A stretch of DNA of 64,000 nucleotides. Origin: Nannocystis bainbridge. GTDB lineage: Bacteria > Myxococcota_A > Polyangia > Nannocystales > Nannocystaceae. Each line of letters opens with the position of its first letter. Positions within the stretch are counted from its first letter, which is position 1. Under the pieces are notes generated by a model. It did no database searches and was not told the origin of the DNA. It worked only from the letters and a program-made list of their open reading frames with translations. The stretch is from assembly GCF_028368995.1 (NCBI RefSeq), contig NZ_JAQNDL010000003.1:2688001-2752000 (forward strand), in the 5' to 3' direction. The position numbers were made by a program, and so were the translations under genes. Below are positions 1 to 54,863 of the stretch, in pieces.

Positions 1-610
1 CGACAACGACCGCGGCTGGGGCATGATCGGCGGCCCCGCGGCTGCCGGCCTCCATTGCACCTGCACCGACGGCGACCGCGATGGTCACTACGCGGTCGCT
101 TGCGGCGGCGACGACTGCGACGACGCCGACCCGGCGCGCCACCCCGGGGCCGCCGAGGTGTGTGACGGTCGCGACAATGACTGCGACGGCGACCTCCCGG
201 CCGACGAGGTCGACGGCGACGGCGACGGCGTGCGCGTCTGCGCCGGCGATTGCGACGACGCCGATCCATCGCGCTGGCCGGGCGCCGTCGAGGACCCCGA
301 CGATTGCATCGACAACGACTGCGACGGCGACGGCGGCCTCGCCTGCGCCCCGACCACCGGCGCCCAGACCTCGAGCGGAGGCAGCGGCACCGGCGAGCAC
401 GAGCCCACCACCACGAACACGACGTCGGGCACCACCGATGCCGACGCCACGGGCCTGACCGACGGGGCCAGCGACAGCGGCGGGGCCGTCGAGGGCGCGG
501 GTTGCGGCTGCAGCACCGGCGGTCCTGCGGCCCCGCTGGGCCTGCTTCTCGGCCTCGTCGGCATGAGGCGGCGGCGGTCGCGTTCTCGGGTATCCTCGCC
601 CCCGCAGTGA
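1..610 (+). CDS. C-terminal part of a secreted MYXO-CTERM protein with Cys/Asp-rich putative metal-binding (MopE-like) repeats; 5' end lies outside the window
   Basis: Repeats DCDDADPARHPGAAEVCDGRDNDCDG, a Thr/Ser-rich linker, and the C-terminal GCGCSTGG-hydrophobic-RRRR sorting signal. Confidence 0.85.
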   Translation, partial: DNDRGWGMIGGPAAAGLHCTCTDGDRDGHYAVACGGDDCDDADPARHPGAAEVCDGRDNDCDGDLPADEVDGDGDGVRVCAGDCDDADPSRWPGAVEDPDDCIDNDCDGDGGLACAPTTGAQTSSGGSGTGEHEPTTTNTTSGTTDADATGLTDGASDSGGAVEGAGCGCSTGGPAAPLGLLLGLVGMRRRRSRSRVSSPPQ

Positions 611-1686: not shown

Positions 1687-1702
1687 TTCTTTTATCGAGG
1701 CC

Positions 1703-1808
1703 GCGCCCGGAGCTGTCCTCCGGGACATGTTATTTCGCGACTGCGCCCGGAGCTGTCCTCCGGGACATGTGAGACGGCCGTGCCCGGAGCTGTCCTCCGG
1801 GACACGTG
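1703..1808. repeat. Three copies of a ~28-bp unit GCGCCCGGAGCTGTCCTCCGGGACATGT, each carrying the TGTCC-N4-GGACA palindrome
   Basis: Copies near 1703, 1743 and 1781, between convergent genes. Confidence 0.95.
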
Positions 1809-1816
1809 ATTTCGCC

Positions 1817-3091: not shown

Positions 3092-3095
3092 TCGA

Positions 3096-4742: not shown

Positions 4743-4832
4743 GCGTCGTTCTCCCTCCGCCGGGCCGCCGCCCGCGCAGGGGCCGGTTATAACGCCCCCG
4801 CGCCCCCGCGGCAACCGACGATCTCGCTCACA

Positions 4833-4950
4833 TGTCCCTCGGGACAGATTCATGAATCTCCTCGGTCGCATTACGCACGCGTAACGCCAATCGTGATTGT
4901 AATGAACGTCGGTTCGTCAATCGCATTGCGCGCAAAATTCCGGCGATTGA
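4833..4950. promoter_or_regulatory. Divergent promoter region with stacked palindromes
   Basis: TGTCC-N4-GGACA 4833-4846; AGATTCATGAATCT 4846-4859; TTACGC-AC-GCGTAA 4871-4884; CAATC-GT-GATTG 4888-4899; TCAATCGC..GCGATTGA 4917-4950. Confidence 0.55.
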
Positions 4951-5124
4951 TCCTTGCGGTGGCATCAGGCCCCATGTTAAGTTGCTGCTCAATCAGCGCA
5001 CAGCGGCGGCAGCGCGCCGGCGGACAGATCGTGCGGACTCTCGTGCGGCGTCTCGCCCGCGCCCGGCCGGCGCCTCATCCGCCCGATCGGCGAATCGCAC
5101 GGTCGGGCTCGCTCGGAGGATCCG

Positions 5125-6501
5125 ATGCCGGACGGCGCATTGAATCTGGGGACCTATCGCGCCTTCACGGCGCGCGACATCGACGTGATCCCGCAATTGC
5201 GCGGCCTGCCCGAGGAGGCGCGGCTGCGCCTGCGGGCGGTCGCGCAGGTGCTGCCGTTCCGCGTCAACGCCTACGTGCTCGAGCAATTGATCGATTGGTC
5301 GCGGGTCCCTGACGACCCGATGTATCAATTGACGATCCCGCAGGCGGAGATGCTGCACGAGGCCGACGTGAGCGCGTTGGTCGACCTGCTGCGCCGCGGC
5401 GACGACGCGGCGGTGCAGGCGCGGGCGCGGACGATCCAGCGGGCCATGAACCCGCACCCGGCCGGCCAGGTCGACCTCAACGTGCCGATCGAGGCCGGCG
5501 TCGAGCAGCGCGGGCTGCAGCACAAGTACCGCCAGACGGTACTGTTCTTCCCGGCGCAGGGCCAGACGTGCCACGCGTACTGTACGTATTGCTTCCGCTG
5601 GGCCCAGTTCGTCGGCCTCGACGACCTCAAGTTCGCCACGCGCGAGGCCGACTCGCTGGTCGAGTACCTCCGGCGTCACCCCGAGGTCAGCGACGTGCTG
5701 TTCACCGGCGGCGACCCGCTGGTGATGCGCACCAGCGTGCTGCGGCGCTACGTCGAGCCGCTGCTCAAGGCCGACCTGCCGAACCTGGCTCACATCCGCT
5801 TCGGCACCAAGGCGCTGGCGTACTGGCCGGCCCGCTTCCTCACCGACCCCGACGCCGACGACCTGCTGCGCCTGTTCGGCGAGATCGAGGCCGCGGGCAA
5901 GCACGTGGCCGTGATGGCCCACTACAGCCACCCGCGCGAGCTGGCGACGCCGGCCGCGGCGCGGGCGCTGCAGCGGGTGCGCGAGGCGGGCGCCGTCGTG
6001 CGCTGTCAGGCGCCGCTCATCCGCCACGTCAACGACGACCCCGACGTGTGGGCCGAGCTGTGGCGCACGCAGGTCCGCCACGGAGCTGTCCCTTATTACA
6101 TGTTCGTCGAGCGCGACACGGGCCCCAAGGAGTACTTCAAGGTCCCGCTGGACCGCGCGCTGAACATCTACCAGGGCGCCTACCGCCAGCTCTCGGGCCT
6201 GTGTCGCAGCGTGCGGGGGCCTTCCATGTCAGCGACGCCAGGAAAGATCCTCCTTGATGGCGTGACCGAAATTGACGGTCGTCGCTACTTTGTCCTACGT
6301 GTACTCCAAGGGCGCAACCCGGAGTGGGTGGGGCGCATCTTCTTCGCCGAATACGACCCCGACGCCGCGTGGCTGGACGAGCTCCGACCCGCATTCGGGG
6401 CATCCGAGTTCTTCTATACGGCTGAGCTCGCTGATCTGCGCCTTCGTCGCGCCGACCTGCGGCTGAGCGTGATCGGCGGTTCACATGCGGTCACCACGTG
6501 A
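5125..6501 (+). CDS. KamA-family radical SAM aminomutase-like protein
   Basis: GLQHKYRQTVLFF, CHAYCTYCFRW (CxxxCxxC), DVLFTGGDPL, HYSHPREL, PYYMFV, SATPGK (candidate PLP lysine). Confidence 0.9.
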   Translation: MPDGALNLGTYRAFTARDIDVIPQLRGLPEEARLRLRAVAQVLPFRVNAYVLEQLIDWSRVPDDPMYQLTIPQAEMLHEADVSALVDLLRRGDDAAVQARARTIQRAMNPHPAGQVDLNVPIEAGVEQRGLQHKYRQTVLFFPAQGQTCHAYCTYCFRWAQFVGLDDLKFATREADSLVEYLRRHPEVSDVLFTGGDPLVMRTSVLRRYVEPLLKADLPNLAHIRFGTKALAYWPARFLTDPDADDLLRLFGEIEAAGKHVAVMAHYSHPRELATPAAARALQRVREAGAVVRCQAPLIRHVNDDPDVWAELWRTQVRHGAVPYYMFVERDTGPKEYFKVPLDRALNIYQGAYRQLSGLCRSVRGPSMSATPGKILLDGVTEIDGRRYFVLRVLQGRNPEWVGRIFFAEYDPDAAWLDELRPAFGASEFFYTAELADLRLRRADLRLSVIGGSHAVTT

Positions 6502-9224: not shown

Positions 9225-9294
9225 TGGTCGTCACGACATGTCCTATTTAACATGCTCAAAAGGGCATGTCATCATGAACATGTCCTATGTGCCA
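9225..9294. repeat. Five tandem degenerate 14-bp units (TGYYY-N4-RRRCA type)
   Basis: CATG at 9237, 9251, 9265 and 9279. Confidence 0.9.
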
Positions 9295-10552: not shown

Positions 10553-11362
10553 CGCGAGGATGGTATCGGCGCCCGGGTCGTCGCGCGAGGCCGATTGTTT
10601 CCGATGCAGCAACCCGACAGTGCTGCGATCGGCCTCGTGCCCCCACCGATGATTGCGTGTCATCCGGCGATCTACAGGGTAGACTGCTGATGCGAGCGCC
10701 GTCGGGAAGCTGCTGAGTCTGCCGACACGCCTGCGCCGGGATGGACCGGCTCTCGCGGCCCGTTCCGGCATCTCGCCGCGCTCGGCGCCGGTCCGGGCCG
10801 GAATTCGCCGGAGATTCTCCCGAGCTGCATCTGCGGCGGGTTCGCCGTGCGCGCGGTGTTTCACCGCCCGTCGACCGGCCATTCGCAGCGCGAAGCTGTT
10901 TTGCGAGCTGCTTCGATTTGGTCGTTCGCGCCATCACGACCGGGCCGGGTAGCGTTCGCACAGCGTTCGCACAAGGACGACGGGCGCGCGCCCGCGGCCG
11001 GGCCGTCGGCAGGCTCTCCGACCCCACCTGGCGGATCTCGCTTCCGGCCGTCTGGCTGCGCTTGCGGGCAGCTTTCTCTGGCCGACGGCGTTCACGCAGG
11101 GGCTGCACGGTGGTCTGCAGCCCCTGTTCAATGTCCGTCCAGACATGTTCGAACAGACATGCAGCAGACTGCGCAGGACAATGTGCTGATGATAACACCG
11201 TATGTACGATGATACGTGCGTCGCACCGACCCAGGGCGGAAGCGACCGCCATGTCTGCGCGATCGCAAGGACCGATGTTCACCAATCGCGGGGGGGCTGG
11301 TCAGCGCGGAGCGTGGTCAGTACCCTGGATTTTGGCCCGCTCGGCGGGTCGGAGTAGCTGCG

Positions 11363-15809: not shown

Positions 15810-15865
15810 TGTCCAGGAGGACATGCCCAATCGGACATGCCCTCCAGGACATGTCTCTACAAAAT
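15810..15865. repeat. Tandem 14-bp unit array (three good units plus one degenerate)
   Basis: tgtccaggaggaca-tgcccaatcggaca-tgccctccaggaca-tgtctc... Confidence 0.9.
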
Positions 15866-16956: not shown

Positions 16957-19497
16957 TCACGCCCGCAGCGTCGCCAGCTCGCGCTCGCCCGCCGACAGCA
17001 GGATCGCCACCTCCTGCAGGCCCGCCGCGTGCTCCGCTCGCGGCGCCAGCCGCTCCGACAGCTCGATGAACGCGCGCCGGTTCTGCTGCAGCCCCAGCGG
17101 CGAGCCCTTGTCGCGGTTGAACACCACCGAGTCGCGCAGCAGCGTCACCGCCTCGGCGTCGCGCCCGAGCAGCGCCAGCACCTGCGACAGCGCCTCCGTC
17201 GTCTGCCCCAGGCCGGTCAGGTCGCCGAGCTGGGTCTGCACCTCGGCCGCCGCGTCGAACCGCTGCTTGGCCGCCATCGTCCGCCCCGCGCGCAGCTCGA
17301 GCCGGCCCATCGTCTCCCACACCCGCCCGAGCTCGCGGACCTCGCCGAGGTCGCGATAGAACCGCTCGGCCGCGCGCGCGTGCTCGAGCCCCATCTCGAA
17401 GCCCTCCGCCTCGCGACCGACGCGCAGCTGGGCGTGCAGCGGCAGGCGAGCGAACAGGTGCTCGGTCTCGGCGAGCTCGCGCAGCGCCACCGGGTCGGTG
17501 TGCACGTGCGGGTCGAACACCTTGCGCGACTGCCGGAGCAATTGCAGCGCGCGGCCCGGGTCGCCCATGCGCACCAGCACCGCCGCCTGATCGTTGAGCA
17601 GGCAGGCCGCCCCGATCGCGTCCCCCGCGGCTTGCAGCATGCTCGCGGCCGCGGCCAGCTCGGTCAGCGCCCGCTCGAGCGAGCGCGGGTCGCCGAGGTC
17701 GAAGCACACGCCGGCGATCGCCTGCGCCAGGTCGGCCGCCAGCTCGACCGGCGCGCCCTCCTCGAGCTCGGCCCGCGCCGACTCGAGGGTCGCCTGCGCC
17801 TGCGTCAGCGTGAACCCGAACTCGTAGCCCGCCGCTTGCCACTGCAGCCGCCCGAGCTCGATCAGCGCCTGCACCCGCAGCAGCCGCCGCGACGCGCTCA
17901 CCGGCAGCGTCGCCAGCAGCGCCAGCGCGCTCCCGGCGTGCTGCGCCGCCGCCTGCGGCGCACCCATCTCCGCCGCCTTGCGCGCCGCCTCGCACAGGTG
18001 CTGCGCCGCCGCGTCGAACTCGCCCGCCAGCCGCATGTGCTCGGCCGCCCGCGCCTCGTCGACCAGCGGGTCCTCGAGCCGCGTCGGCACCACCCGCGAC
18101 GGCGCGCCCCAGCCGGCCGGGCCCGCGTCTTCCTCGGCCGGCGGAGCCGCGAAGATCGTCTTGCGCCGCGCCGGCGACCAGCCCGCCGGGCGCGCCTCGA
18201 CCTGCTCGCCTGGACCTGTCCCTTGCGACACCTTGACGTTCGGCCCCAGCGCGCTGGCCCCCAGCGCGAGCGGCACCGGCCCGGACCGCTCGCCCTTGGC
18301 CGGCACCCGCCACGCCGGCGCGCCGCTCGCCCCGGAATCACCTGTCCCATCGGCCAGCTTGTCTCCGCCCTGGCCCGCCTCGTCACCTGTCCCTTCGGAC
18401 ACATCAAGACTCTCGCCGGCGATCAGAGCGTCGGCCCGCGGGGACGTCTCGATGCCACCTGTCCCTGCGGACATATCCTGACTCTGCTCGGCGACCGCCG
18501 CCATCTCGCTGGCGACCTGCGCCGCCAGCCCGGTGTCGTCGACGAGGTCGACCACCTCGGCCGAGAGGTCGATGATCTCGGCCACGTGGGCGGCGCTGGG
18601 GATCTTGCCGCGCGACTTGACGCGCGGCACGGGCGGCCGCGGCGGGCCCGCGACCTCTTCGCCGGCACGCGCGCCCAGCAGCCGTCCGAGCTTGCGGTGC
18701 CACGCCTGCGCGAGCGACGGCATCAGCGACTTCGACAACGCCGTCAGCGCCGAGGTCGGCAGCGAGAACCGACCCTCGCCGCGGTCCTCGAGCGGCAACC
18801 CGAGGTCGGTCGCCTGCTGCAGCAGCTCGAGCACCACCAGCGGCTCGAGCGACAGTAGGTCGGCCACGATCCGCGTCTCGAAGCCCGGCCCGATCAACGC
18901 GCCCGCCCGCAGCACCCGCAGCACCTCCGGCGGCAGCGTACGCCACGCGATCGCCTGCGCCTCGCCGCTCGGCGGCTCCTCCCCGCGCACCACCCCGGCA
19001 GCGTCGCGCGTCCGCACCGCCAGCAACAGCTCGGCCGCCGCGTCCTTCGGCTCGCCGTGGAACACCAGCACCAGCGGCAGCTGCAACCAGCCCTGCCGCT
19101 TCACGATCTGGGTCAGCGCCGCCAGCGTCGCCTCGTCGGCCTGCTCGACCGCGTCGAACACCACGACCCATTGCGAACCTGTCTGTTGGGCCAGGTGATT
19201 CCACAGCTCGACCAGCACCGCCTCGGTGGCCCGCTCGGGCGCCTCGCCGAACAGGGTCCGCCGGCGCAGCGACTTCGCACGATCGGGCGGCTTGGGCCGC
19301 GCCTCGCCGAGGATCGCCTCGGTCAGCCGGCGCGCCTCGAGCAGCGGCCGCAGGGCCGCCGGGGCCACCTCGCAGCTGACCCGCAGCAGCTGCAGCGCGG
19401 GCGGTGGATCGGGCAACCGCCCGCGCACCGCCGTCGCCAGCCGCTCACGCACTCGCTGCCACAGTCGCCCGGGGTCGCGCTCGTCGATTTGGGTCAT
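16957..19497 (-). CDS. Tetratricopeptide-repeat protein with a degenerate ATPase-like N-terminus and a low-complexity linker
   Basis: [15 protein letters not shown] (Walker-B-like), [16 protein letters not shown] wHTH-like segment, C-terminal helical repeats. Confidence 0.7.
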
Positions 19498-22565: not shown

Positions 22566-25351
22566 TGGCGTCGCTGGACTCCTATCACCGCAAGCGCGAC
22601 TTCACCCGCACCTCGGAGCCGCGCGGCGAGACCCCGAAGCGCCGCTCGCAGGGTGAGTTCATCATCCACAAGCACGCGGCGACCCGGCTCCACTACGACC
22701 TGCGGCTCGAGATCGACGGCGTGCTCAAGAGCTGGGCGGTGCCGAAGGGCCCGAGCCTCGACCCGCACGACAAGCGGCTCGCCGTCCACGTCGAGGACCA
22801 CCCGCTCGAGTACGGCGGCTTCGAGGGCACCATCCCGCAGGGCGAGTACGGCGGCGGCTCGGTGGTGCTGTGGGACCGCGGGCGCTGGTACCCCGAGGGC
22901 GATGCGCGCGCCGACTACCGCGCCGGCAAGCTCAAGTTCCGCTTCGACGGCCACAAGCTCCACGGCGCCTACACGCTGGTGCGCATGCACGGCCGTCGGG
23001 GCGACGATCACGACAACTGGCTGCTGATCAAGGAAGCCGACGAGGAGGCCAGCGACGACGGCGAAGCCCTGGTGCGCGACCAACCCGAGAGCGTGATCAG
23101 CGGCCGTACCGTCGAAGAGGTCGCCGCCGGCGTGCCCGCGAAGAAGCAGGCCAGGAACAAGAAAAAGGCGACGAAGAAGGCTCCTGCCAAGAAGACCCCC
23201 AAGAAATCGACCCCCAAGAAGGCGACCGCCAAGAAGGCGGCCAAAGTCGCGGCAAAGAAAGCCCCCGCCAAGAAATCCGCGGCCAAGAAGTCGACCGCCA
23301 AGAAGGCGGCCAAAGTCGCGGCAAAGAAAATCCCCGCCAAGAAGACAGCCAAGAAATCCACGACCAAGAAGACCGCCGCCAAGAAATCCGCCAAGAAGAC
23401 CCCCGCGATCAAGGCCACCAGCCGGCCGCGCGCCACCCGGAAGAAGACCAGCAAGAAGACCGCCGCCAAGGCCGAATCTGCCCCAGCGCGCGCGCTCCCG
23501 GCCCGCATCGCCCCCGAGCTGGCCACCCTGGTAGAAAAAGTCCCGCCCGGCGACGAGTGGGTCCACGAGATCAAGTTCGACGGCTATCGCCTGCTCGTCC
23601 GCCTCGACGGTGACGACATTCGCCTCATCACCCGCGGCGAGCAGGACTGGACCGAGCGGCTCGCCCCGCTCGCCAAATCACTACAGCGGCGCTTCGGCGA
23701 CCGGCGCCTGCTCGTCGACGGCGAGCTCGTGCACGTCGACGACGACGGCCTCACTCGCTTCGGCCCGCTGCAGGCCGCCCTCGCCGAGGAGCGCACCGGG
23801 GAGCTCGTGTTTTATGCCTTCGACCTGCTCCACCTCGACGGTCACGACCTGCGCGGCCTCCCGCTGGTCGAGCGCAAAGAGCTGCTCGCCGCCCTGCTCC
23901 CGCCCGAGGACGCCCCCGGGCGCGTGCGCCTGTCGGAGCACGTCGTCGGCGGCGGCGAGGAGCTGCTCGCACGCGCCTGCTCGCTCGGCCTCGAGGGCAT
24001 CCTCGCCAAGCGCGCCGACGCCCCCTATCGCAGCGGCCGCACCCGCGACTGGCTGAAGATCAAGTGCGGCCGCCGCCAGGAGGTCGTCGTCGGCGGCTAC
24101 GCGACCGCGCGCAGCGGCCCGCGGGCCCTCGGTGCCCTGCTGATCGGCGTATTCGACGACGACGGCAAATTGCAGTACGCCGGCAAGGTCGGCACCGGCT
24201 TCGATTTCGCCGAGGCCGCCCGGCTCAAAAAATTGCTCGCCGCCCGCGAGGCCCCGCGCTCCCCCTTCGCCGGCCGCCTCCCGCCCGGCCTCGGCGACGT
24301 CCATTTCGTCCGCCCCGACGTCGTCATCGAGGTCCGCTTCGGCGAGTGGACCCGCGACGATCGCATGCGTCACGCCGTCTACGAGGGCGTGCGCGAGGAC
24401 AAGCGGCCCAAGCAGGTCCAGCGCGAGACCCCGGCCGCCGCCCCGACCAGCGCCACGACCGAGGTCCTCGGCGTCGCCTTGAGCAACCCCGGCCGCGTGC
24501 TGTGGCCGGACGATGGCATCACCAAGCGCGACCTCGCCGAGTACTACGAGAAGATCGCCGGGTGGATCCTCCCGCAGGTCGCCGAGCGCCCGCTCAGCCT
24601 CGTGCGCTGCCCTGACGGCGTCGGCAAGCCGTGCTTCTTCCAGCGCCACATGAAGCACGACCTGCCCGAAGGCATCCACGCGATCGATCTCGACGGCGAC
24701 GGCGAGCCGGCCTACGTCTACGTCCGCGACGCCGCGGGCCTGGTCGGCCTGGCCCAGATCGGCGTGCTCGAGCTGCACGCCTGGGGCGCCACCGTCGCCG
24801 ATCCCGACGGCCCCGACCGCCTGGTCCTCGACCTCGACCCTGCCGAGGATGTCCCCTGGGACATGGTCAAAGGGGCAGCCCGGGCCATGCACGAGCGCCT
24901 CGCCCAGCTCGACCTCGACAGCTTTTTGAAGACCACCGGCGGCAAGGGCTTGCACGTCGTCGTCCCGCTGACCGCCGGTCGCCAGAGCTGGGCCGAGGTC
25001 AAGGCGTTCGCCCGCGGGATCGCCCGCGAGTTCAGCCTCGCCGACCCCGAGCATTTTGTCGACGTCGCCGCCAAGCTCAAGCGGCGCGGCAAGATCTACA
25101 TCGACTACCTCCGCAACGACCGCAAGGCCACCAGCGTCGCCGCCTACTCGCCGCGGGCTCGCCCCGGCGCGCCCGTGTCGGTCCCGCTGCGCTGGTCCGA
25201 GCTCGCGGGCCTCGAAGCCCCGCAGACCTACGACCTCACAAGCACCGTCGCTCGCCTCGCCAAGCTGCGCAGCGACCCCTGGCGCGAGCTGGCGCGCGTC
25301 CGCCAGGTCCTGACGCCCGCCCGTCTGCGCGCCGTCGGCGTCAAGAAATAA
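22565..25351 (+). CDS. ligD: DNA ligase D (PE-LIG-POL order) with Lys/Ala-rich insert
   Basis: HYDLRLE, KSWAVPKGPS; EIKFDGYR; EGILAKR, WLKIK; LDLDP, KTTGGKGLHV, IDYLRN. Confidence 0.97.
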   Translation: MASLDSYHRKRDFTRTSEPRGETPKRRSQGEFIIHKHAATRLHYDLRLEIDGVLKSWAVPKGPSLDPHDKRLAVHVEDHPLEYGGFEGTIPQGEYGGGSVVLWDRGRWYPEGDARADYRAGKLKFRFDGHKLHGAYTLVRMHGRRGDDHDNWLLIKEADEEASDDGEALVRDQPESVISGRTVEEVAAGVPAKKQARNKKKATKKAPAKKTPKKSTPKKATAKKAAKVAAKKAPAKKSAAKKSTAKKAAKVAAKKIPAKKTAKKSTTKKTAAKKSAKKTPAIKATSRPRATRKKTSKKTAAKAESAPARALPARIAPELATLVEKVPPGDEWVHEIKFDGYRLLVRLDGDDIRLITRGEQDWTERLAPLAKSLQRRFGDRRLLVDGELVHVDDDGLTRFGPLQAALAEERTGELVFYAFDLLHLDGHDLRGLPLVERKELLAALLPPEDAPGRVRLSEHVVGGGEELLARACSLGLEGILAKRADAPYRSGRTRDWLKIKCGRRQEVVVGGYATARSGPRALGALLIGVFDDDGKLQYAGKVGTGFDFAEAARLKKLLAAREAPRSPFAGRLPPGLGDVHFVRPDVVIEVRFGEWTRDDRMRHAVYEGVREDKRPKQVQRETPAAAPTSATTEVLGVALSNPGRVLWPDDGITKRDLAEYYEKIAGWILPQVAERPLSLVRCPDGVGKPCFFQRHMKHDLPEGIHAIDLDGDGEPAYVYVRDAAGLVGLAQIGVLELHAWGATVADPDGPDRLVLDLDPAEDVPWDMVKGAARAMHERLAQLDLDSFLKTTGGKGLHVVVPLTAGRQSWAEVKAFARGIAREFSLADPEHFVDVAAKLKRRGKIYIDYLRNDRKATSVAAYSPRARPGAPVSVPLRWSELAGLEAPQTYDLTSTVARLAKLRSDPWRELARVRQVLTPARLRAVGVKK

Positions 25352-25395
25352 CATGCCTCTTCGGGCATGTCCAAAAGGTCATTGTCAACACCCGC

Positions 25396-25686: not shown

Positions 25687-25912
25687 GATCGGCAGCATGA
25701 CTCGAGACTTCCCCTCGACCACCGGTGGTCCGGGTCGCACTCCGACGCGTCTCACACCGCGTGCGGGCCCGGCTCGACGGGCGTCCGCGGCCCCTCTACG
25801 CGCCCTCCGCGCTCGCAGCACGAACGCCCGCATGCGCCCGTGACCGCCCGCGCGCGCATGCGCCTGCGCCCGCGCCCCGCGGCCTCGCCGGCGTGGTAGA
25901 AGGCCCGCCGTC

Positions 25913-27193: not shown

Positions 27194-28378
27194 GTGCCCG
27201 CCGTCCTCGTCCCCGATCGCCTCACCCGCCACGTCGCCGCCGGCCACCCGTGGCTGTACGCCGACGCCGTCCCCGAGGTCGGTGGCGCCCGCACCGGCGA
27301 CATCGTCCTCCTGGTCGGCCAGGGTCGGCGGCCGATCGGTCACGCGATCTTCGACGCCGACTCGCCGATCGCCCTGCGCGTGCTCGCCACCCGCAAGGAC
27401 GAGCGGCCCGGCCCCGCATTGTGGCGCCGGCGGATCGAGACCGCCTGGCGGCTGCGCCAGACCACCCTCGACCTGTCCACCACCGACGCCTTCCGCGTGC
27501 TCCACGGCGAGGGCGATCGCCTGCCCGGCGTCGTCGTCGATCTGTACGCCGGCTGCGCCGTGCTCAAGCTCGACACCGCCGCCTGGCTGCCGCACCTCGA
27601 CGACCTCACCGCAGCGATCGTCGAGGTCGTCAATCCGCGCTCGCTGTGGTTCAAGGGTCTGAGCGGCCAGCGCGGCGGCGACGAAGTGCCGGCCTCGCAG
27701 CGCCCGCGCGTGCTCGCCGGCGAGGAGCCGCCGCCGCAGGTCGAGATCCGCGAGCACGGCATGCGCATGCGCGTCGACGTGCGGCGCGGCCAGAAGACCG
27801 GCATGTTCCTCGACCAGCGCGAGAACCGGCGCCTCATCCGCCAGGTCGCGCGCGGGCGCGAGACCCTCAACCTGTTCTCGTACACCGGCGGCTTCTCGCT
27901 GGCCGCCGCGCTCGGCGGGGCTCCGCGCGTCACCAGCGTCGACCTCGCGCGCAACGCCGTCGACGCCGCGCGTGACAACTTCGCCCTCAACGACCTCGAC
28001 CCCGCCGCGCACGCCTTCGTCGCCGCCGACGCCTTCGCCTTCCTCGAGCAGACCGCCGGCGCCGCCTACGACCTCGTCATCGTCGACCCGCCCTCGTTCG
28101 CGCCCAATCACAAGGCCGTGCGCGCCGCCGAGGCCGCCTACGCCCGCCTCAACGCCAGCGCCCTGCGCCAGGTCCGCCCCGGCGGCCTGCTCGCCGCCGC
28201 CAGCTGTTCGAGCCATGTCCCGATGGACATGTTCTTGAGGATCCTCAGCGAGGCCGCGCGGCAAGCGAGGCGCCCGCTGCGACTGCTCGAGGTGCGCCAC
28301 GAGCCGCCCGACCACCCGTCACCGCTGCACTTCCCCGAGGGTCGTTACCTCAAGTTCGTGCTCGCGGTGGCCGAGTAG
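27194..28378 (+). CDS. RlmI-like class I SAM-dependent rRNA methyltransferase
   Basis: GHPWLY, GEGDRLPG, GQKTGMFLDQRENR, LFSYTGGFS, DPPSF, YLK. Confidence 0.92.
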   Translation: MPAVLVPDRLTRHVAAGHPWLYADAVPEVGGARTGDIVLLVGQGRRPIGHAIFDADSPIALRVLATRKDERPGPALWRRRIETAWRLRQTTLDLSTTDAFRVLHGEGDRLPGVVVDLYAGCAVLKLDTAAWLPHLDDLTAAIVEVVNPRSLWFKGLSGQRGGDEVPASQRPRVLAGEEPPPQVEIREHGMRMRVDVRRGQKTGMFLDQRENRRLIRQVARGRETLNLFSYTGGFSLAAALGGAPRVTSVDLARNAVDAARDNFALNDLDPAAHAFVAADAFAFLEQTAGAAYDLVIVDPPSFAPNHKAVRAAEAAYARLNASALRQVRPGGLLAAASCSSHVPMDMFLRILSEAARQARRPLRLLEVRHEPPDHPSPLHFPEGRYLKFVLAVAE

Positions 28379-35437: not shown

Positions 35438-36190
35438 ATGCTCTTCGACGCCCACCTCCACATCATCGAACCGCGCTTCCCGCTCGTCCCCAATCAAGGC
35501 TGGCTGCCCGCTGCTTTTGATGTCCCCGAGTACATGTCCCATGCGACAGCCATGGGCATCACTGGCGGCGCCGTCGTGTCCGGCTCGTTCCAGGCGTTCG
35601 ACCAGTCGTACCTCGAGGACGCCCTCGCCCGGCTCGGCCCCACCTACGTCGGCGTCACCCAGCTCCCGGCCGACGTCCCGGACGCCGAGGTCGTGCGACT
35701 GAACCATCTCGGCGTCCGGGCCGTGCGCTTCAACCTGCGTCGCGGTGGTTCGGCCGACCTCGCCGACCTCGAGACCCTCGCCCGCCGCGTCCACGACCTC
35801 GCGGGATGGCACACCGAGCTCTACGTCGATTCGTCCGACCTGTCGGAGCTCGCGCCGCGACTGCGTGCGCTGCCCCGGGTCAGCATCGATCACCTCGGCC
35901 TGTCGGCGGCCGGTCTGCCGACCTTGCTCGCGCTGGTCGAGCATGGCGTGCGCGTCAAGGCCACCGGCTTCGGCCGCGTCGACTTCGAAGTGGCTGACGT
36001 CCTGCGCCAGATCTCCGCCATCGACCCTCACGCCCTCATGTTCGGCACCGACCTGCCCTCGACCCGCGCCCCGCGGCCCTTCACACCCGCGGACCTCCCT
36101 CTTTTAAAAGAGGCCCTGAGCCCCGAGCTGTCACGCCGCGCCCTCTACGACAACGCGATCGCCTGGTACCGCCCCGCCGCCCTCGCATAA
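35438..36190 (+). CDS. Amidohydrolase family protein (2-pyrone-4,6-dicarboxylate lactonase-like)
   Basis: FDAHLH, VRFN, IDHLG, MFGTDLP. Confidence 0.88.
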   Translation: MLFDAHLHIIEPRFPLVPNQGWLPAAFDVPEYMSHATAMGITGGAVVSGSFQAFDQSYLEDALARLGPTYVGVTQLPADVPDAEVVRLNHLGVRAVRFNLRRGGSADLADLETLARRVHDLAGWHTELYVDSSDLSELAPRLRALPRVSIDHLGLSAAGLPTLLALVEHGVRVKATGFGRVDFEVADVLRQISAIDPHALMFGTDLPSTRAPRPFTPADLPLLKEALSPELSRRALYDNAIAWYRPAALA

Positions 36191-39805: not shown

Positions 39806-40960
39806 GTGCAGTCCGTCACGCCCCTCACTGTGCGCATCCGCCGCGCGTTCTCTCGGCTGTTCGATTCGCGGCGGATCGGCCGCAGCATCGCCCTCGGCGC
39901 TGCGCTGTCCGTGCCGCTGATCGCTTGCACCTCGCTGACCCTCACTCGCCTGAATTCGGCGCAGAAGAAGCCCAACAACGTGTGGGTATTCTTCACCGTC
40001 GAGCAGAACGAGGAGCCGGTCGCAGGCCTCCAGGCCGAGGACTTCCAGATCTACGAAGACGGCGATCTGGTCTCGACCTACGAGAGCAAGCAGGTCATTC
40101 AGAACCCCGAGGTCGCGGCGGTCATGTACACCATGCTGCTGCTCGACGTGTCGGGCTCCGTGTCCGAGTCCGGCTCGGCGGACCAGTTGGTCGACGCCGC
40201 GCAGCTGTTCACCGACCGCGTCGGCAAGACCCAGAAGGTCGGCGTCTACGCGTTCGACGGTGAGAAGGAGCTGCACTCGGTGACGCCCTTCACCGAGTCG
40301 GAGGGCGCCGTCTCGGGCGGCCTCGACGGCCTGCGGACCTACAAGCCCAAGGACCCCTCGACCAACCTTCACGGTGCGGTCATGGAGGGGCTCAAGGAGC
40401 TCAAGAAGTCGCTCGACAAGGAGAAGAAGCCGCTCAAGTTCGGCACCCTCGTCGTGTTCACCGACGGCACCGACCGCGCCGCCCGCTTCTCGCGCGAGGA
40501 CATGAAGGGCGAGCTGCTGAAGGAGCAGTACAAGGACTACGAGATCTACGCGATCGGCGTCGGCGCGGAGATCAAGAAGGCCGGCCTCGGCGACATCGGC
40601 CGCGACGGCACCGAGCTGGCGACCGAGCAGACCGGCGTCAAGACGGCCTTCGAGAAGGTCGCCGACCGCATCGAGCGCCACACCAAGCGCTTCTACCTGC
40701 TGTCCTACTGCACCCCGGCGCGCAAGGGCACCCACACCGTCCGCATCGTCGCCAACAGCAAGAGCCCCAAGGGCTCCGGCCAGCTCGAGTGGGACTTCAA
40801 CGCCGACGGCTTCGGCCCCCCGCCTGAGTGCGACCCCAACACCCCGCCCGTGTTCCCGCTCAAGACCGGCGAGATCGTCGACACCGGCAAGATCCAGGGC
40901 GACAGCGGCAGCGGCGGCAAGGTCAAGGTCAAGGCCAGCGCCTCCGCCTCGGCCGGTTAA
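39806..40960 (+). CDS. vWA-domain lipoprotein (start uncertain)
   Basis: LIAC lipobox, MIDAS LLDVSGS, TNLHGAV, VFTDG, YLLSY. Confidence 0.88.
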   Translation: MQSVTPLTVRIRRAFSRLFDSRRIGRSIALGAALSVPLIACTSLTLTRLNSAQKKPNNVWVFFTVEQNEEPVAGLQAEDFQIYEDGDLVSTYESKQVIQNPEVAAVMYTMLLLDVSGSVSESGSADQLVDAAQLFTDRVGKTQKVGVYAFDGEKELHSVTPFTESEGAVSGGLDGLRTYKPKDPSTNLHGAVMEGLKELKKSLDKEKKPLKFGTLVVFTDGTDRAARFSREDMKGELLKEQYKDYEIYAIGVGAEIKKAGLGDIGRDGTELATEQTGVKTAFEKVADRIERHTKRFYLLSYCTPARKGTHTVRIVANSKSPKGSGQLEWDFNADGFGPPPECDPNTPPVFPLKTGEIVDTGKIQGDSGSGGKVKVKASASASAG

Positions 40961-40993
40961 CTGAGCCGCGCGCGCTCGCGTCAGCGCCGAGAA

Positions 40994-41073
40994 GGGCATG
41001 TCCTCGCGGACATGCCCTTTTTGACATGGTCAAAAGAGCATGTCTCAGAGGGCATGACCATTCAGACATGTCA
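40994..41073. repeat. Longest 14-bp periodic array: six CATG-centred decamers with 4-nt spacers
   Basis: CATG at 40997, 41011, 41025, 41039, 41053 and 41067. Confidence 0.95.
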
Positions 41074-41180
41074 CGACATTGCGCGCCATGCATCACCCCG
41101 ACGCGCCCGAGCCGCCTCGACGCGCGCGTGATTCCAGCGCCCGCTTTTTGATAAAGCGAGAGAGAGTCTTTGGGACAGGC

Positions 41181-42935
41181 TCAGCCGCCGAGCCGGCGCG
41201 CCAGTTGGTCTTCGTACAGCGACGGCGGGTCGAGCGGCTCGACCTGACCGGGGCCCTCGACCCAGTCCTCCGGCGCGGTCCCGGCGGCGTCGGGCGACTC
41301 CAGGCTGGTCTCGACCGCCAGCTGCGGGCCGACCCCGATCACGTAGCCGTGGCCGAACTGGCGCGAGCGCACCACCCCCTTGCCGCTCGCGTTCCACACC
41401 GCCGACTGCGTCGCGCTGTGGCCGGCCCCGCTCGACCACGCCAGGCGATTGACCGCGCCCCAGCCGTCGTCGACCACGCTCTGGTCGAGCAGGTTCGCCG
41501 TCGCCAGCGAGTGGTGGAACTCCGACAGCCCCACCGTCCCGAACTCGCTGCCCATCAGCGCCACCGCCTTGCCCTCCGAGCTGTGCACCCGCAGCCACAC
41601 GATCCCCGTCGCGCCGAAGCCCCAGTTCTGCACGAAGTTGTGCCGCCCCGCCCGCGCCACGCAGTCGCGCACCAGCACCTCCCCGCTCTGCATCACCTCG
41701 AACAGATAGCCGTTGCCGCCGTCGCCGCGGTGCTGCGCCAGCTCGAGCGTGCTCTCGGCCACCGTCACCCGCGCGCTGCGCTGAATCGTCAGACCGCCGG
41801 ATTGCAGGTGGCGCCCGGACCCCTTGCCCTCCGCCGGCGCTCCTGGCGACACGAACGACCTCACCCCCGAGACCCACGCGTCGCGCACCCCGATCATCGC
41901 CACCGCGTACACCTGGTCCTGCGACCACGCGTCCTCCCAGCCGACCGCGTTGGCGACCCCGACGTCCATCAACGCCACCTCGCGCAGCAGCCCCGTCACC
42001 GGCCGCACGCTGGCCTGGTCGCGCACGAGCGCCGGGTAGCGCAGCGGCACGTCGAGCTCGAGCGTGCCGCTGACGCCGTCGACCGCCGTCACGGTGCGCC
42101 AGAAGAACGGCTGCCAGGTGTCGTTGAACTGCTGCCAGGTGCCCGTCATCGCGTGCTCGCCGACGAACGCCGGGGAGATCTGCCAACCGATGGCGATCTC
42201 GTCGCCGACCTTCAGGCTGCTCGGATCGGCCACCGTGATCGTGCGCGACCGCTCCTCTCCGCTCTCGGTCAGCGCCACGTCGACCCCCAGCTGCGGCGCG
42301 CCGGCGAACGTCAGATGTGCCTCATAGGACATGTCCGAAAAGGCAGTGAACCATAGTCGGCTCTGCTCGGCCCCGTCGCCCTGGATCACCGTGTTCGAGC
42401 TGCTGACCGTCAGCCGCCCGTCGACCCGGTAGAGCCCCGCCGGCAGGCGCACGACCGCCCCGCCGGCCGCGGCCGCGGCGTCGAGCGCGGCCTGCAGCGC
42501 CGCCGTCGCGTCGCTCGCCCCGGTCTGATCGGCCCCGTGGTCGCGCACCGCGTCGATCGTCTCGGCCGGCAACACGCTGCCCGGCGTCACCTCGGCCAGG
42601 CGATAGCCGGCGTACGAAAAATCGTGGAGATAGCGCCCCTCCGGCCCCGTGAACGCCGGCGTCCAGTCCTCCGGATAGAGCTCGCTGCGCCACCCCGCCG
42701 GCTCGCCGGTCGTGCTCGTCCCGTCGCCCGTGCTGCTGCTCGTCCCGGTCGGCCCCGTCGTGCTCGTCGGCTCGCCCGTGGTGCCTGACGGATCGCTCGT
42801 GGTCCCCGTCGTCGTGCCCGTCACCTCCGCGCCCGTGCTCGGGCCCTCGCCCGTCGAGGTCGACGCGCTCGTGCTGCCGTCGCCCCCGCCACAGGCCATC
42901 ACCCACACCACCGACGTCACCGCGAGCCGACGCAT
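41181..42935 (-). CDS. Lipoprotein with pectate-lyase-like beta-helix (GH28/55-related)
   Basis: VMAC lipobox, Thr linker, DFSYAGY, HGADQTGASDATAALQAALD, LPAGLY, IQGDG. Confidence 0.82.
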   Translation of the reverse strand: MRRLAVTSVVWVMACGGGDGSTSASTSTGEGPSTGAEVTGTTTGTTSDPSGTTGEPTSTTGPTGTSSSTGDGTSTTGEPAGWRSELYPEDWTPAFTGPEGRYLHDFSYAGYRLAEVTPGSVLPAETIDAVRDHGADQTGASDATAALQAALDAAAAAGGAVVRLPAGLYRVDGRLTVSSSNTVIQGDGAEQSRLWFTAFSDMSYEAHLTFAGAPQLGVDVALTESGEERSRTITVADPSSLKVGDEIAIGWQISPAFVGEHAMTGTWQQFNDTWQPFFWRTVTAVDGVSGTLELDVPLRYPALVRDQASVRPVTGLLREVALMDVGVANAVGWEDAWSQDQVYAVAMIGVRDAWVSGVRSFVSPGAPAEGKGSGRHLQSGGLTIQRSARVTVAESTLELAQHRGDGGNGYLFEVMQSGEVLVRDCVARAGRHNFVQNWGFGATGIVWLRVHSSEGKAVALMGSEFGTVGLSEFHHSLATANLLDQSVVDDGWGAVNRLAWSSGAGHSATQSAVWNASGKGVVRSRQFGHGYVIGVGPQLAVETSLESPDAAGTAPEDWVEGPGQVEPLDPPSLYEDQLARRLGG

Positions 42936-43172
42936 GATCTCCAGCATGCCCGAGCACCGACCTCAGCCGTAAGGGGCCGCCGATCGCCGCTGCCTCACGA
43001 CCTCCGCCACAGCGCCTGACTGTTCGGACATGCCCTTACGGACATCTTCGAAAGTGCGCGCGGCCGCGGTCCGCCGACCCCGGCGAACAGCGGCCGGTTT
43101 CACTCGCAAAGACGTGTCGTGAATCTCACCCGAGCGGGAACTTTACCGCCCTCCGAGCGTGCCACCCTTTGC

Positions 43173-52853: not shown

Positions 52854-52892
52854 CGCCAGGTCCTTCGCGGCATGTTCTCTGCGACAGGTCCC

Positions 52893-53555
52893 ATGGGACA
52901 GCCACGCACCGCCGCCGAACCCGAGCCGAGCCCCGAGGCGCGGCGCCTGGCTCGCAAGTCGCGGCGCCAGGACAACCGCCGCCAGCAGATCCTCCGCGCC
53001 GCCCGCGAGGTGCTGCTGGCGAGCGGCCCCGAGGCGTTCACGATGGAGCAGGTGGCCCGGGCCGCCGACGCCAGCAAGGCCGCGCTCTACTATTATTTCG
53101 AGGCCAAGGAGGAGGTCGTCGCGGCCCTGGCGATCGAGGCCCTGCGGCGCGAGGTCGAGGCCGTCAGCGCCGCCGTGATCGCCGCCGAGCGCGGCATCGA
53201 CGGCCTCGCGGCGCTGCTGCGCGGCCGCGTCGAGCACTACCTCGCCGACCCCGACTCGTTCCGGATCCTCTACACCTGGGCGCCGACGCTGGGCGCGACC
53301 CAGCGCCTGGTCCTGGCCGAGATCTTGCCCCTCACCGCGGTCGTCAGCCAGACGCTCGAGGCCAAGCTGCAGCGCGACCGCAAGGCCGGTCTGCTCCACC
53401 CCGACGCCAACCCGGCCCGCCTGTCCCAGGTCGCCTGGATCACCAGCCACGGCCTGCTCAGCTACGCGATGAACCAACCCCACCCGGAGCGCGGCGCCTG
53501 GCGCCCCCTGTGCGACGAAGCCTGCGCCGCCCTGGTCCGCGGCGCCACGCGCTGA
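52893..53555 (+). CDS. TetR/AcrR-family regulator
   Basis: ILRAAREV..FTMEQVARAADASKAALYYYFEAKEE. Confidence 0.92.
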   Translation: MGQPRTAAEPEPSPEARRLARKSRRQDNRRQQILRAAREVLLASGPEAFTMEQVARAADASKAALYYYFEAKEEVVAALAIEALRREVEAVSAAVIAAERGIDGLAALLRGRVEHYLADPDSFRILYTWAPTLGATQRLVLAEILPLTAVVSQTLEAKLQRDRKAGLLHPDANPARLSQVAWITSHGLLSYAMNQPHPERGAWRPLCDEACAALVRGATR

Positions 53556-53899: not shown

Positions 53900-54682
53900 T
53901 CACGGCGCCAGCCACACGTCGCCGGACTCGACCCTGCGCGGCGGCCCGCCGTCTGCCAGCGCGACCATCAGCGCCCCGTCGTCGGCCAGCCCCAGCGCCT
54001 TTGCCTGCACCTTCGGGCCTGCCCCATTCGACATGTCCACAAAGACATCCCGATCTCGCAGCGCGCAGTGGGGCTCGTAGCGGCCGCGGATCGCCGCGAA
54101 CCCGCCGGAGAAGAACTGCTCCAGCGCGGCCTCCAGCGCCGGCAAGATCCGCCCCAGCACCGCCTCGCGGCTCGGCGTTGCTTCGCCCAGCTCGCGGCGC
54201 AGGCTCGTCGCCGTCGCTGCCAGCGGCTCGGGGAACAGCGACCGACCCACGTTGACGCCGAAGCCGACCACCACCTCGGGCGACGACCCGACCCACCGCG
54301 CCTCGCAGAGGATCCCCGCCAGCTTGCGGCCTTCGACCAGCACGTCGTTGGGCCACTTCAGCTGCGCCGCTGGCAGCCAACGCGACAGGCCCTCGCGCAG
54401 CCCTGCGCCCACCGCCAGCCCGAGCGCCCCGATCGGCTTGCCCGCGTCCGGCCGCAAGATCGCGCTGACATACAGGTCCTCGCCCGACTCCGACGCCCAC
54501 GCCCGCCCCAGCCGCCCGCGCCCCGCCGTCTGTGCGTCCGCGGTCACCAGCGCCCCGTGCGGCGCCCCGGCCCGCGCCCACGCCAGCGCGCGATCGTTGG
54601 TCGACCCGAGCTCGGCCCAGTGCTCGCGCGGGCGCCCGAGCCAGCGCGTCGCAAAGGCCATATTTTCGAAGGAGTCGCTCAC
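53900..54682 (-). CDS. birA: Biotin-protein ligase (no N-terminal HTH)
   Basis: STND, QTAGRGRLGRAW, KWPNDV, KLAGIL, GFGVN. Confidence 0.92.
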   Translation of the reverse strand: MSDSFENMAFATRWLGRPREHWAELGSTNDRALAWARAGAPHGALVTADAQTAGRGRLGRAWASESGEDLYVSAILRPDAGKPIGALGLAVGAGLREGLSRWLPAAQLKWPNDVLVEGRKLAGILCEARWVGSSPEVVVGFGVNVGRSLFPEPLAATATSLRRELGEATPSREAVLGRILPALEAALEQFFSGGFAAIRGRYEPHCALRDRDVFVDMSNGAGPKVQAKALGLADDGALMVALADGGPPRRVESGDVWLAP

Positions 54683-54863
54683 GCCCGCCCCCCGCAGGGC
54701 ATCCGCCGTTGCGAGCCCCTGGACAGGCGCATCGTCAGCACGAACACCCTCGATCGCTCGAAGAATCTGTCCCTTCGGACATCCCCAGCGCTCCGCGCGA
54801 GCATCCGCGCACGCGGTCGCTCTTCACTGCACATGTCCCTTCAGACATGCCCCATTCACCGGC

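What the first reader, a model, noticed from the sequence alone, without database searches (positions are those of the whole stretch)
40994..41073. Head-to-tail arrays with strict 14-bp CATG periodicity
SEEN: GGGCATGTCC-tcgc-GGACATGCCC-tttt-TGACATGGTC-aaaa-GAGCATGTCT-caga-GGGCATGACC-attc-AGACATGTCA. The same register recurs at 9225-9294 (5 units), 15810-15851 (3 units) and in 2-unit arrays at 11132, 24850, 25354, 35521, 42318, 43017, 52874 and 54020. Units differ in sequence while the phase is exact, which argues against recent slippage and for selection on spacing. Long arrays sit just past gene 3' ends (GNAT; A-T-R/pyrC; vWA/beta-helix; ligD). INFERENCE: 14 bp is ~1.33 helical turns, so three units (42 bp) give ~4 turns. 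This would suit a protein polymerising cooperatively around the DNA, with long arrays acting as nucleation sites or transcription roadblocks.
Basis: partly seen in the sequence, partly recalled or inferred. Interest (0 to 1): 0.75.

Follow-up and report, generated by a model that had tools for sequence, protein, structure and literature searches.

The report
Genome-wide 14-bp palindrome lattice in Nannocystis
The arrays are real and belong to a family of about ten thousand copies of one 14-base palindrome that tiles head to tail behind genes in the myxobacterial genus Nannocystis, an apparently undescribed repeat system whose reader and purpose are still unknown.

Summary
Observation confirmed and far larger than reported. 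Genome-wide (11.05 Mb, 71.5% GC), CATG-to-CATG distances peak at 14 (3736), 28, 42, 56 and 70 bases, against 72 and 262 at 13 and 15. The physical unit is the 14-bp palindrome TGYCC-N4-GGRCA. Abutted units create the CATG, and arrays end in inward-facing half-sites. A weight-matrix census finds about 11,000 units versus 657 in a reversed-sequence control.

Units fill gene 3' ends: 64% of convergent intergenic regions hold at least one, versus 20% of divergent ones. They abut stop codons. They are also about 35-fold enriched inside genes, in variable linkers in the three genes examined.

The family is confined to Nannocystaceae: hundreds of arrays in large Nannocystis genomes and 44 pattern matches in one genome of another genus. 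Apart from simple tandem repeats in 3 genomes, it was not found in 300 other Myxococcota.

Spacing is rigid, covariation is weak, and real arrays fold no better than shuffled-unit arrays. No U-tract and no RAYT transposase were found.

Best reading (0.35): a dimeric DNA-binding protein reads each unit as duplex DNA, and arrays form a lattice at convergent gene ends. Rivals are REP-like hairpin terminators and a self-propagating or uptake-type palindrome. No protein was identified.

The parts
40994..41073 (.). Main array: six decamers (RRRCATGYYY) at a 14-bp period. The weight matrix calls five TGYCC-N4-GGRCA units at 40999-41068.
   Evidence: Folds as one long hairpin on either strand.
39806..40960 (+). 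Upstream gene (VWA_2 domain). Its stop lies 34 nt before the array.
41181..42947 (-). Convergent downstream gene (pectate-lyase-like beta-helix). Its stop lies at 41181.
9239..9294 (.). Array of four units between a + gene ending at 9178 and a - gene (GNAT domain) ending at 9300.
15810..15851 (.). Array of three units between an A-T-R gene (+, ends 15802) and an amidohydrolase gene (-, ends 15857).
   Evidence: Arrays are present at the orthologous place in 4 of 4 relatives whose flanks aligned, with different units.
11132..11159 (.). Two-unit array.
25354..25381 (.). Two-unit array just after a stop codon. In relatives the same place holds a hairpin built on the same motif but in another register.
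43017..43044 (.). Two-unit site in the divergent intergenic region between 42947 and 43119. The motif is conserved in all 5 relatives while the flanks diverge.
28216..28229 (.). Single unit overlapping the probable ATG start of the minus-strand gene that ends at 25796. Nearly identical in all 5 relatives.
24850..24877 (.). Two-unit site inside coding sequence.
35521..35548 (.). Two-unit site, conserved in all 5 relatives. My crude gene caller left it uncalled, but its conservation pattern looks like coding sequence.
42318..42345 (.). Two-unit site inside the beta-helix gene.
52873..52900 (.). Two-unit site inside coding sequence.
54020..54047 (.). Two-unit site inside coding sequence.
18217..18473 (.). 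Four solitary units (CCTGTCC-N4-GGACA type) in a hypervariable in-frame linker of the ORF 16957-19497 (-).
1714..1804 (.). Three copies of a repeat of about 38 bp, each holding one unit, just after a stop codon.

Best explanation
The arrays belong to a lineage-specific, highly iterated 14-bp palindrome, TGYCC-N4-GGRCA. There are about 11,000 units in this 11-Mb Nannocystis genome. Units abutted head to tail create the CATG at each junction.

I think the unit is most likely read as double-stranded DNA by a dimeric sequence-specific protein, one dimer per unit. The two half-sites lie 9-10 bp apart centre to centre, which is the geometry of a classical helix-turn-helix dimer site. In an array each successive dimer is turned about 120 degrees, so three units make four helical turns. 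The array then becomes a continuous protein-DNA lattice. These lattices sit mainly at the ends of convergent transcription units, where they would act as a two-way barrier or insulator. Single and double units elsewhere, in gene linkers and a few promoters, would be lower-occupancy sites of the same protein.

Shown: the unit, the lattice, its rigidity, its location, its lineage restriction and its turnover. Inferred: that a protein reads it, and what the lattice does.
For: Rigid geometry:
- TGYCC-Nk-GGRCA occurs 2828 times at k=4 against 23-93 at every other k from 0 to 14. The junction GGRCA-N0-TGYCC occurs 1771 times against 27-78 at k=1-13, with 1107 at the k=14 harmonic.
- There is no excess at CATG lags 13 or 15.
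- Arrays end in inward-facing half-sites, so the 14-mer is the unit.

Half-sites are conserved independently. Mutual information between pairing partners is at most 0.023 bits. Only 199 of 3736 adjacent decamer pairs are perfectly complementary, against 73 expected.

Real arrays (n=447) fold no better than synthetic arrays built from shuffled units and spacers: -0.450 against -0.436 kcal/mol per nt. There is no T-tract after arrays.

The core is much better kept than the spacers. The middle core is CATG in 1670 of 2073 cases, while spacers are close to random.

The same unit is about 35-fold enriched deep inside genes: 695 against 4-47 at other spacings in 5.5 Mb. Terminator hairpins have no business there.

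The sites at 43017 (divergent promoter region) and 28216 (start codon) are conserved in all 5 relatives while their flanks diverge.

The same core occurs in another genus, where 17 of 21 arrays examined lie between convergent genes. Single arrays occur in further Nannocystaceae genera. This suggests a reader conserved across the family.

Coverage of convergent intergenic regions is high: 64% hold at least one unit and 43% at least two, against 20% and 6% for divergent ones.
Against: No candidate protein was found. Of 60 small genes next to promoter-side arrays scanned in Pfam, none formed a coherent regulator set.

Arrays turn over fast between species in unit number and sequence. One relative has no intergenic DNA at all at the main locus. 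So an individual array is dispensable.

A minority of arrays look like fresh slippage products.

Sense-strand T..G units outnumber C..A units 323 to 249 (p=0.002). This could reflect selection on RNA pairing, although transcription-linked mutation bias predicts the same skew.

The rigid spacing could come from how units are made and not from selection, if arrays are young.

The gene calls behind the location statistics are crude. Only 74-77% of the genome was called as coding, and 5' ends are over-called.
Confidence: 0.35

Rival explanations
1. REP/BIME-like extragenic palindromes that act as RNA (or single-stranded DNA) hairpins. Transcribed arrays fold into very stable stems that stop transcription in both directions or protect mRNA 3' ends. 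The shared sequence reflects common descent of a spreading repeat, not a protein reader.
For: Arrays abut stop codons: the median distance is 28 nt and a quarter lie within 3 nt. 46% of arrays with at least three CATG lie in convergent regions, which make up about 20% of intergenic bases, and 3.6% lie in divergent ones. The main array folds at -47.7 and -43.4 kcal/mol (z -6.2 and -5.4) on the two strands. At the 25352 locus relatives keep a hairpin but in a different register. Complementary Y/R pairs show a slight excess, odds ratio about 2.4, and there is a sense-strand wobble skew.
Against: Loop and linker lengths are rigid although hairpins tolerate variation. There is no covariation, and real arrays fold no better than shuffled-unit arrays. 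There is no U-tract. Only 3 of 102 tRNA genes are followed by an array. Units are strongly enriched inside genes. No Y1/RAYT transposase was found in the genome. There is no GTAG/CGTC tag, and the unit is 14 bp, not 20-40 bp.
Confidence: 0.25
2. A self-propagating short palindrome kept abundant by a molecular drive and not by host function. Candidates are a DNA-uptake signal for natural transformation (like DUS/USS), or a HIP1-like word favoured by a methylation or repair bias. It accumulates wherever it is tolerated and expands locally by slippage.
For: Density is about one unit per kb and even along all contigs. Units are present in coding sequence, where the three genes examined carry them in variable, repeat-rich linkers with in-frame indels. 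In intergenic DNA they occur as hairpin-forming sets behind genes. Distribution is lineage-restricted, with a second expansion in another genus. Turnover between species is fast. Fresh tandem duplications occur at 14-bp and higher-order periods.
Against: Known uptake signals are asymmetric and do not form phased arrays (recalled, not tested). No uptake or repair machinery was linked to the motif. A D12-class methyltransferase is present in 58 of 61 family genomes whether or not they carry arrays. Some sites are conserved more than their flanks. Without a reader, a drive does not explain the rigid lattice.
Confidence: 0.2
3. Scars or insertions from a sequence-specific DNA-cutting or integrating enzyme. 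Each event adds one unit in register at a CA|TG junction, or duplicates the decamer around a 4-bp fill. The lattice would then be built by construction.
For: The constant repeat with variable but fixed-length spacers, and the unrelated neighbouring spacers, fit unit-wise addition. Units begin with TG and end with CA.
Against: Array flanks are unique, so no larger multicopy element carries the arrays. No candidate enzyme was found. A 14-bp insertion cannot explain units inside intact genes. No known element is this small.
Confidence: 0.05

Closest known systems
REP elements and BIME arrays of enterobacteria and pseudomonads (RAYT-associated)
   Same: High-copy short palindromes in regular arrays behind genes, often between convergent genes. 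They can form hairpins. REP and BIME properties are taken from the abstracts of PMC2817692 and PMC3733652 as listed.
   Different: The unit is 14 bp, not 20-40 bp, and carries no GTAG/CGTC tag. The lattice has zero gap and a fixed 4-bp spacer. No Y1/RAYT transposase is present in the genome. Units are also abundant inside genes.
HIP1 (GCGATCGC) of cyanobacteria
   Same: A lineage-specific palindromic word, over-represented tens to hundreds of fold in coding and non-coding DNA, with unknown function. This comes from the abstract of PMC5861425 and passages of PMC4390886.
   Different: HIP1 is a contiguous 8-mer and is not reported to form phased tandem arrays. Here the word is split (5-N4-5), tiles at 14 bp and is concentrated at 3' ends. 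A link to a methyltransferase was not shown here.
DNA uptake sequences (DUS of Neisseriaceae, USS of Pasteurellaceae); properties recalled, from no call
   Same: About one copy per kb, family-specific, present in genes at tolerant places and as inverted pairs in terminators.
   Different: Uptake sequences are asymmetric single words and do not form phased arrays. Uptake bias was not tested here.
Iterated operators coated by small dimeric repressors (MetJ met-boxes, omega heptads, ParR/ParG centromere repeats); recalled, from no call
   Same: Short units abutted at a fixed period, each bound by one dimer, giving a helical protein coat.
   Different: Those occur at one or a few loci next to the cognate gene. 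Here there are thousands of loci genome-wide and no cognate gene is known.

Membership tests
REP/BIME (RAYT-mobilised extragenic palindromes) | Imperfect palindrome of 20-40 bp with a conserved GTAG or CGTC tag at one end | tested here: not met
   The unit is 14 bp (TGYCC-N4-GGRCA), and flank profiles show no conserved tag beyond the half-sites. The definition comes from the abstract of PMC3733652.
REP/BIME (RAYT-mobilised extragenic palindromes) | A Y1 (IS200/IS605-like) RAYT transposase gene in the genome | tested here: not met
   PF01797 gave 0 matches in G000, whose completeness by marker genes is 90.5%. The control search rang in 6 of 14 reference genomes.
REP/BIME (RAYT-mobilised extragenic palindromes) | High copy number, extragenic, in regular arrays at 3' ends | tested here: inconclusive
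   High copy number and 3'-end arrays are met. But units are also about 35-fold enriched deep inside genes.
Intrinsic (Rho-independent) terminators | G+C-rich hairpin followed by a U-tract on the transcribed strand | tested here: not met
   Hairpins are present. No T enrichment was found in spacers or in the 15 nt after 486 unidirectional arrays (T 0.17). The consensus scan found 0 sites at 40500-41500. The first unit pair of the main array does carry TTTTT, so single cases may qualify.
Highly iterated palindromes (HIP-like) | Short palindromic word over-represented many-fold in both coding and non-coding DNA of one lineage | tested here: met
   2828 at N4 against 23-93 at other spacings genome-wide. 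695 against 4-47 in 5.5 Mb of deep coding sequence. Lineage restriction is shown.
Highly iterated palindromes (HIP-like) | Cognate orphan methyltransferase acting inside the word | tested here: inconclusive
   One D12-class methyltransferase is present in G000 and in 58 of 61 family genomes, irrespective of arrays. Its specificity is unknown.
DNA uptake sequences (DUS/USS) | Preferential uptake of DNA carrying the word by competent cells | not testable with these tools
   Only the genomic signature (about 1 per kb, even spread, presence in genes and behind genes) could be compared.
CRISPR arrays | Repeats of 23-50 bp, spacers of similar length, few loci, cas genes | tested here: not met
   The repeat is 10 bp and the spacer 4 bp, at about 2000 loci. 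Cas genes were not searched.

The most novel reading that the evidence does not exclude
Nannocystis uses a dedicated sequence-specific DNA-binding protein that coats phased arrays of a 14-bp palindrome as its general means of ending or insulating convergent transcription units. This would be a protein-lattice terminator or boundary system encoded genome-wide, doing the work usually done by hairpin-plus-U-tract terminators.
Probability: 0.15. Interest if true: 0.85.

Novelty: new variant of a known kind. Interest (0 to 1): 0.66.

Why it matters
If a protein reads this lattice, it would be a genome-wide DNA code that marks gene ends in a group of very large, G+C-rich genomes where classical terminators are hard to recognise. 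It could then be tested directly with arrays whose spacers are changed by one base.

If instead it is a self-propagating palindrome, it is a clean new case for the long-open question of how words such as HIP1 or uptake sequences spread. It has an unusual, easily scored feature in the exact 14-bp phase.

Either way the motif has practical uses. It marks Nannocystis DNA in metagenomes, it is likely to break short-read assemblies, and it flags gene 3' ends for annotation.

Tried and rejected
- Larger mobile element: 400-bp flanks of arrays with at least three CATG matched one another only at overlapping neighbours, contig-end duplicates and a few paralogues. Rejected.
- RAYT: none found.
- Rfam: no match at 40000-42000 at E up to 1.
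- Consensus terminator scan at 40500-41500: 0 sites.
- tRNA 3' ends: 3 of 102 have an array within 120 nt. Arrays are not general terminators of stable RNA genes.
- Cognate regulator by position in other genera: single arrays in six other Nannocystaceae genomes lie near unrelated genes.
- Cognate regulator by position in G000: of 129 genes with an array of at least two units on the promoter side, 67 were at most 400 aa. I scanned 60 of these in Pfam and found three AraC-type regulators, one HC2-like protein and otherwise enzymes. No candidate emerged.
- Methyltransferase profile: PF02086 is present in 58 of 61 family genomes, so it does not discriminate.
- RNA evidence: only metagenome or metatranscriptome contigs from relatives were on offer. 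They stop near the stop codon of the VWA gene, but contigs break at repeats and cannot show transcript ends. No conclusion.
- Viral contigs: 4 loci carry two decamers. None resembles G000 by BLAST. Not followed up.
- The one Nocardiopsis hit of the strict pattern has no similarity to G000. It is unexplained and treated as an isolated case.
- Literature: searches for the decamer, for Nannocystis with repeat, palindrome or terminator terms, and for myxobacteria with extragenic palindromes found no description of this repeat. The decamer search returned p53 response-element papers among its 47 hits, a coincidence of consensus.

Full report
**What is there.** The quoted sequence is present at 40994-41073: six decamers of the form RRRCATGYYY separated by 4-nt spacers, with CATG at 40997 and every 14 nt up to 41067. 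The array at 15810 has three CATG in phase plus a left half-site. The array at 9225 has four in strict phase, not five.

The window is part of an 11.05-Mb, 71.5% G+C assembly in five contigs.

**More than chance.** In the window, CATG pairs at lag 14 occur 14 times against 0-4 at nearby lags. Over the genome, with 39,940 CATG, the lag counts are:
- lag 14: 3736
- lag 28: 2073
- lag 42: 1586
- lag 56: 751
- lag 70: 383

Lags 13 and 15 give 72 and 262, and about 144 are expected at any one lag from CATG density. Chains of CATG in strict phase number 2066 with at least two members and 801 with at least three, the longest having 12.

**The true unit.** Profiles of array ends show an inward-facing half-site on each side: TG.CC at -12 to -8 and GG.CA at +11 to +15. 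There is no conservation beyond these. Counting spacings gives the following:
- TGYCC-Nk-GGRCA occurs 2828 times at k=4 and 23-93 times at every other k from 0 to 14.
- GGRCA-Nk-TGYCC occurs 1771 times at k=0 and 27-78 times at k=1-13, with 1107 at the k=14 harmonic.

So the unit is the 14-bp palindrome TGYCC-N4-GGRCA, and CATG is the joint between two abutted units.

A weight-matrix census at 10 bits finds 11,005 units: 6172 solitary, 1151 pairs, 370 triplets and 301 longer chains. The reversed sequence gives 657 hits, all solitary but one pair. That is about one unit per kb, spread evenly over all contigs.

**Where it lies.** I used a crude caller based on third-position G+C. It calls only 74-77% of the genome as coding and over-' ends.
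- Of 799 arrays with at least three CATG that could be classed, 46% lie in convergent, 34% in co-directional and 3.6% in divergent intergenic regions, and 16.5% in called genes. Convergent regions make up about 20% of intergenic bases.
- Of 984 convergent intergenic regions of 20-1000 bp, 64% hold at least one unit and 43% at least two. The figures are 36% and 15% for 2547 co-directional regions and 20% and 6% for 904 divergent regions.
- Arrays abut stop codons. The median distance to a 3' end is 28 nt and a quarter lie within 3 nt.
- There is a sharp peak where the TGA stop supplies the TG of the terminal half-site: 45 cases against about 8 at neighbouring offsets.

In the window, the three long arrays all lie between convergent genes:
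- an unknown gene and a GNAT gene;
- an A-T-R gene and an amidohydrolase gene;
- a VWA gene and a beta-helix gene.

**Also inside genes.** I masked 5.5 Mb of deep coding sequence: genes of at least 900 nt, minus 300 nt at the 5' end and 60 nt at the 3' end. Within it the N4 unit occurs 695 times against 4-47 at other spacings. This includes spacings with the same codon phase, k = 1, 7 and 10, which give 12, 4 and 9. The abutted decamer occurs 306 times against 10-37.

Examples lie in low-complexity, repeat-rich linkers. One protein, whose translation shows the HRDLKPEN kinase motif (family not scanned), carries a run of PVPADM-type repeats. A second carries DVLGDR-type repeats. In the window, the linker at 18150-18520 of ORF 16957-19497 carries four units. 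Its length differs among six species by 0, 9, 12 or 39 nt, always a multiple of three. Unit positions in coding sequence are only slightly better conserved than their flanks, 0.90 against 0.86.

**Who has it.**
- A strict three-decamer pattern scanned over one genome for each of 185,579 species gave 13 loci. Twelve are in Nannocystis (N. exedens DSM 71, N. pusilla Na p29, N. radixulma, Nannocystis sp. RBIL2 and a Nannocystis MAG) and one is in a Nocardiopsis contig.
- A looser triple pattern gave 850 matches in this genome and 475-536 in four other large genomes of the genus. It gave 5-12 in three fragmented, more distant genomes of the genus, and 0-2 in other Nannocystaceae. The exception is one genome of another genus, G067, with 44. 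The backwards control gave 0 everywhere.
- Of 300 other Myxococcota genomes, 3 matched, all with simple tandem repeats unrelated to the unit.
- In G067 I fetched 20 loci chosen from the listed matches. By the same crude criteria, 17 of the 21 arrays in them lie between convergent genes.
- The single arrays in six other genomes sit in A+T-rich intergenic DNA next to unrelated genes.

**Evolution at orthologous places.** The main locus carries an array in this genome and 5 of the 6 relatives compared. The arrays have two to six CATG, different spacers and partly different units, although the flanking genes are 90-95% identical. The sixth relative has only 9 bp between the genes.

The 15822 locus has arrays in all four relatives whose flanks aligned, again with different content. 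At 25352 every species keeps a hairpin built on the motif, but centred either on a spacer or on CATG. The array at 54832 is present in two species and absent in three.

By contrast, the two-unit site at 43017 (divergent region) and the unit at 28216 (at a probable start codon) are kept in all five relatives while neighbouring bases diverge.

Some arrays are fresh duplications, with identical units and spacers in a row or higher-order repeats of about 64 bp. Flanks of arrays are unique, so no larger repeated element carries them.

**Hairpin or duplex?** As a single strand, the main array folds into one long nested hairpin: -47.7 kcal/mol (z -6.2) on the plus strand and -43.4 kcal/mol (z -5.4) on the minus strand. 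This appears to follow from the palindromic motif and not from any extra selection on pairing:
- Mutual information between positions that would pair is at most 0.023 bits.
- Perfectly complementary neighbouring decamers are 199 of 3736 against 73 expected, and identical neighbours 113 against 74.
- Flanking spacers are fully complementary in 101 and identical in 148 of 5802 cases, against 59 and 61 expected.
- 447 real arrays fold at -0.450 kcal/mol per nt, against -0.436 for arrays assembled at random from the same pools of units and spacers.

Within units, complementary Y/R combinations are modestly enriched, with an odds ratio of about 2.4. In 486 arrays behind co-directional genes, T..G units outnumber C..A units on the sense strand 323 to 249 (p=0.002). 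Spacers and trailing sequence are not T-rich. The skew fits RNA wobble pairing, but it also fits the usual excess of G and T on sense strands. Only 3 of 102 tRNA genes are followed by an array. Rfam has no match.

**Reading.** The rigid 5-4-5 geometry with zero gap, near-random spacers and missing covariation mean one of two things. Either the half-sites and their spacing are what is maintained, or units are added in register by some machine. Hairpin function alone would tolerate loops of 3-5 nt and any linker length.

The half-sites are 9-10 bp apart centre to centre. That is the geometry of classical helix-turn-helix dimer sites such as those of the CRP/FNR family, a resemblance I recall and did not test.

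I therefore rank a duplex-reading dimeric protein and a lattice at convergent gene ends first, at 0.35. A REP-like hairpin terminator or stabiliser comes next at 0.25, then a self-propagating or uptake-type palindrome at 0.20. Unit-wise insertion or scarring trails at 0.05. These are not exclusive: a protein reader could both drive spread and be used by the host.

No protein was identified. The genome has no RAYT. Genes beside promoter-side arrays show no coherent regulator. A D12-class methyltransferase is present across the family regardless of arrays.

**Known relatives and novelty.** The closest known kinds are REP/BIME arrays, the HIP1 palindrome of cyanobacteria, DNA uptake sequences, and iterated operators coated by small dimers. 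The family fails two defining tests for REP (size and tag, and RAYT). It meets the descriptive definition of a highly iterated palindrome. It differs from all of these by its exact 14-bp tiling.

Four literature searches found no description of it. Subscription journals and supplements were not covered. I file it as a new variant of a known kind, a lineage-specific highly iterated palindromic repeat. A categorically new function is not excluded.

Noticed in passing
window 18150-18520: Hypervariable in-frame linker in ORF 16957-19497 (-). Its length differs among six species by multiples of three, and it carries four units of the CCTGTCC-N4-GGACA type at shifting positions.
   Followed up: partly
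window 1700-1805: Three tandem copies of a repeat of about 38 bp just after a stop codon, each containing one unit (GCTGTCCTCCGGGACA).
   Followed up: no
window 1-6000: Little or no synteny with the five relatives, whereas 6000-64000 is collinear with them. This may be a variable island at the window's left end.
   Followed up: no
G000 contig ends: C1 4.516-4.534 Mb, C2 3.023-3.031 Mb, C2 0.8-2.1 kb, C5 711-717 kb: Identical copies of array-bearing sequence at contig ends, some inverted. They are either large repeats or assembly overlaps.
   Followed up: no
G000:C1:3591550-3592293: A single D12-class adenine methyltransferase gene, with a counterpart in 58 of 61 Nannocystaceae genomes searched. 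It looks like a conserved orphan enzyme of unknown specificity.
   Followed up: partly
L016 (Nocardiopsis contig), L058-L061 (viral contigs): Isolated occurrences of two or three decamers at the same spacing outside Nannocystaceae. None is similar to G000 by BLAST.
   Followed up: partly
G000:C2:158671-159786 (L108): A gene with a histone H1-like (HC2) low-complexity region and a two-unit array on its promoter side.
   Followed up: no
G000:C3:1501540-1501900: The densest locus: 19 units in 1 kb of intergenic DNA, organised as a higher-order repeat of about 64 bp (four units plus an 8-bp linker).
   Followed up: partly
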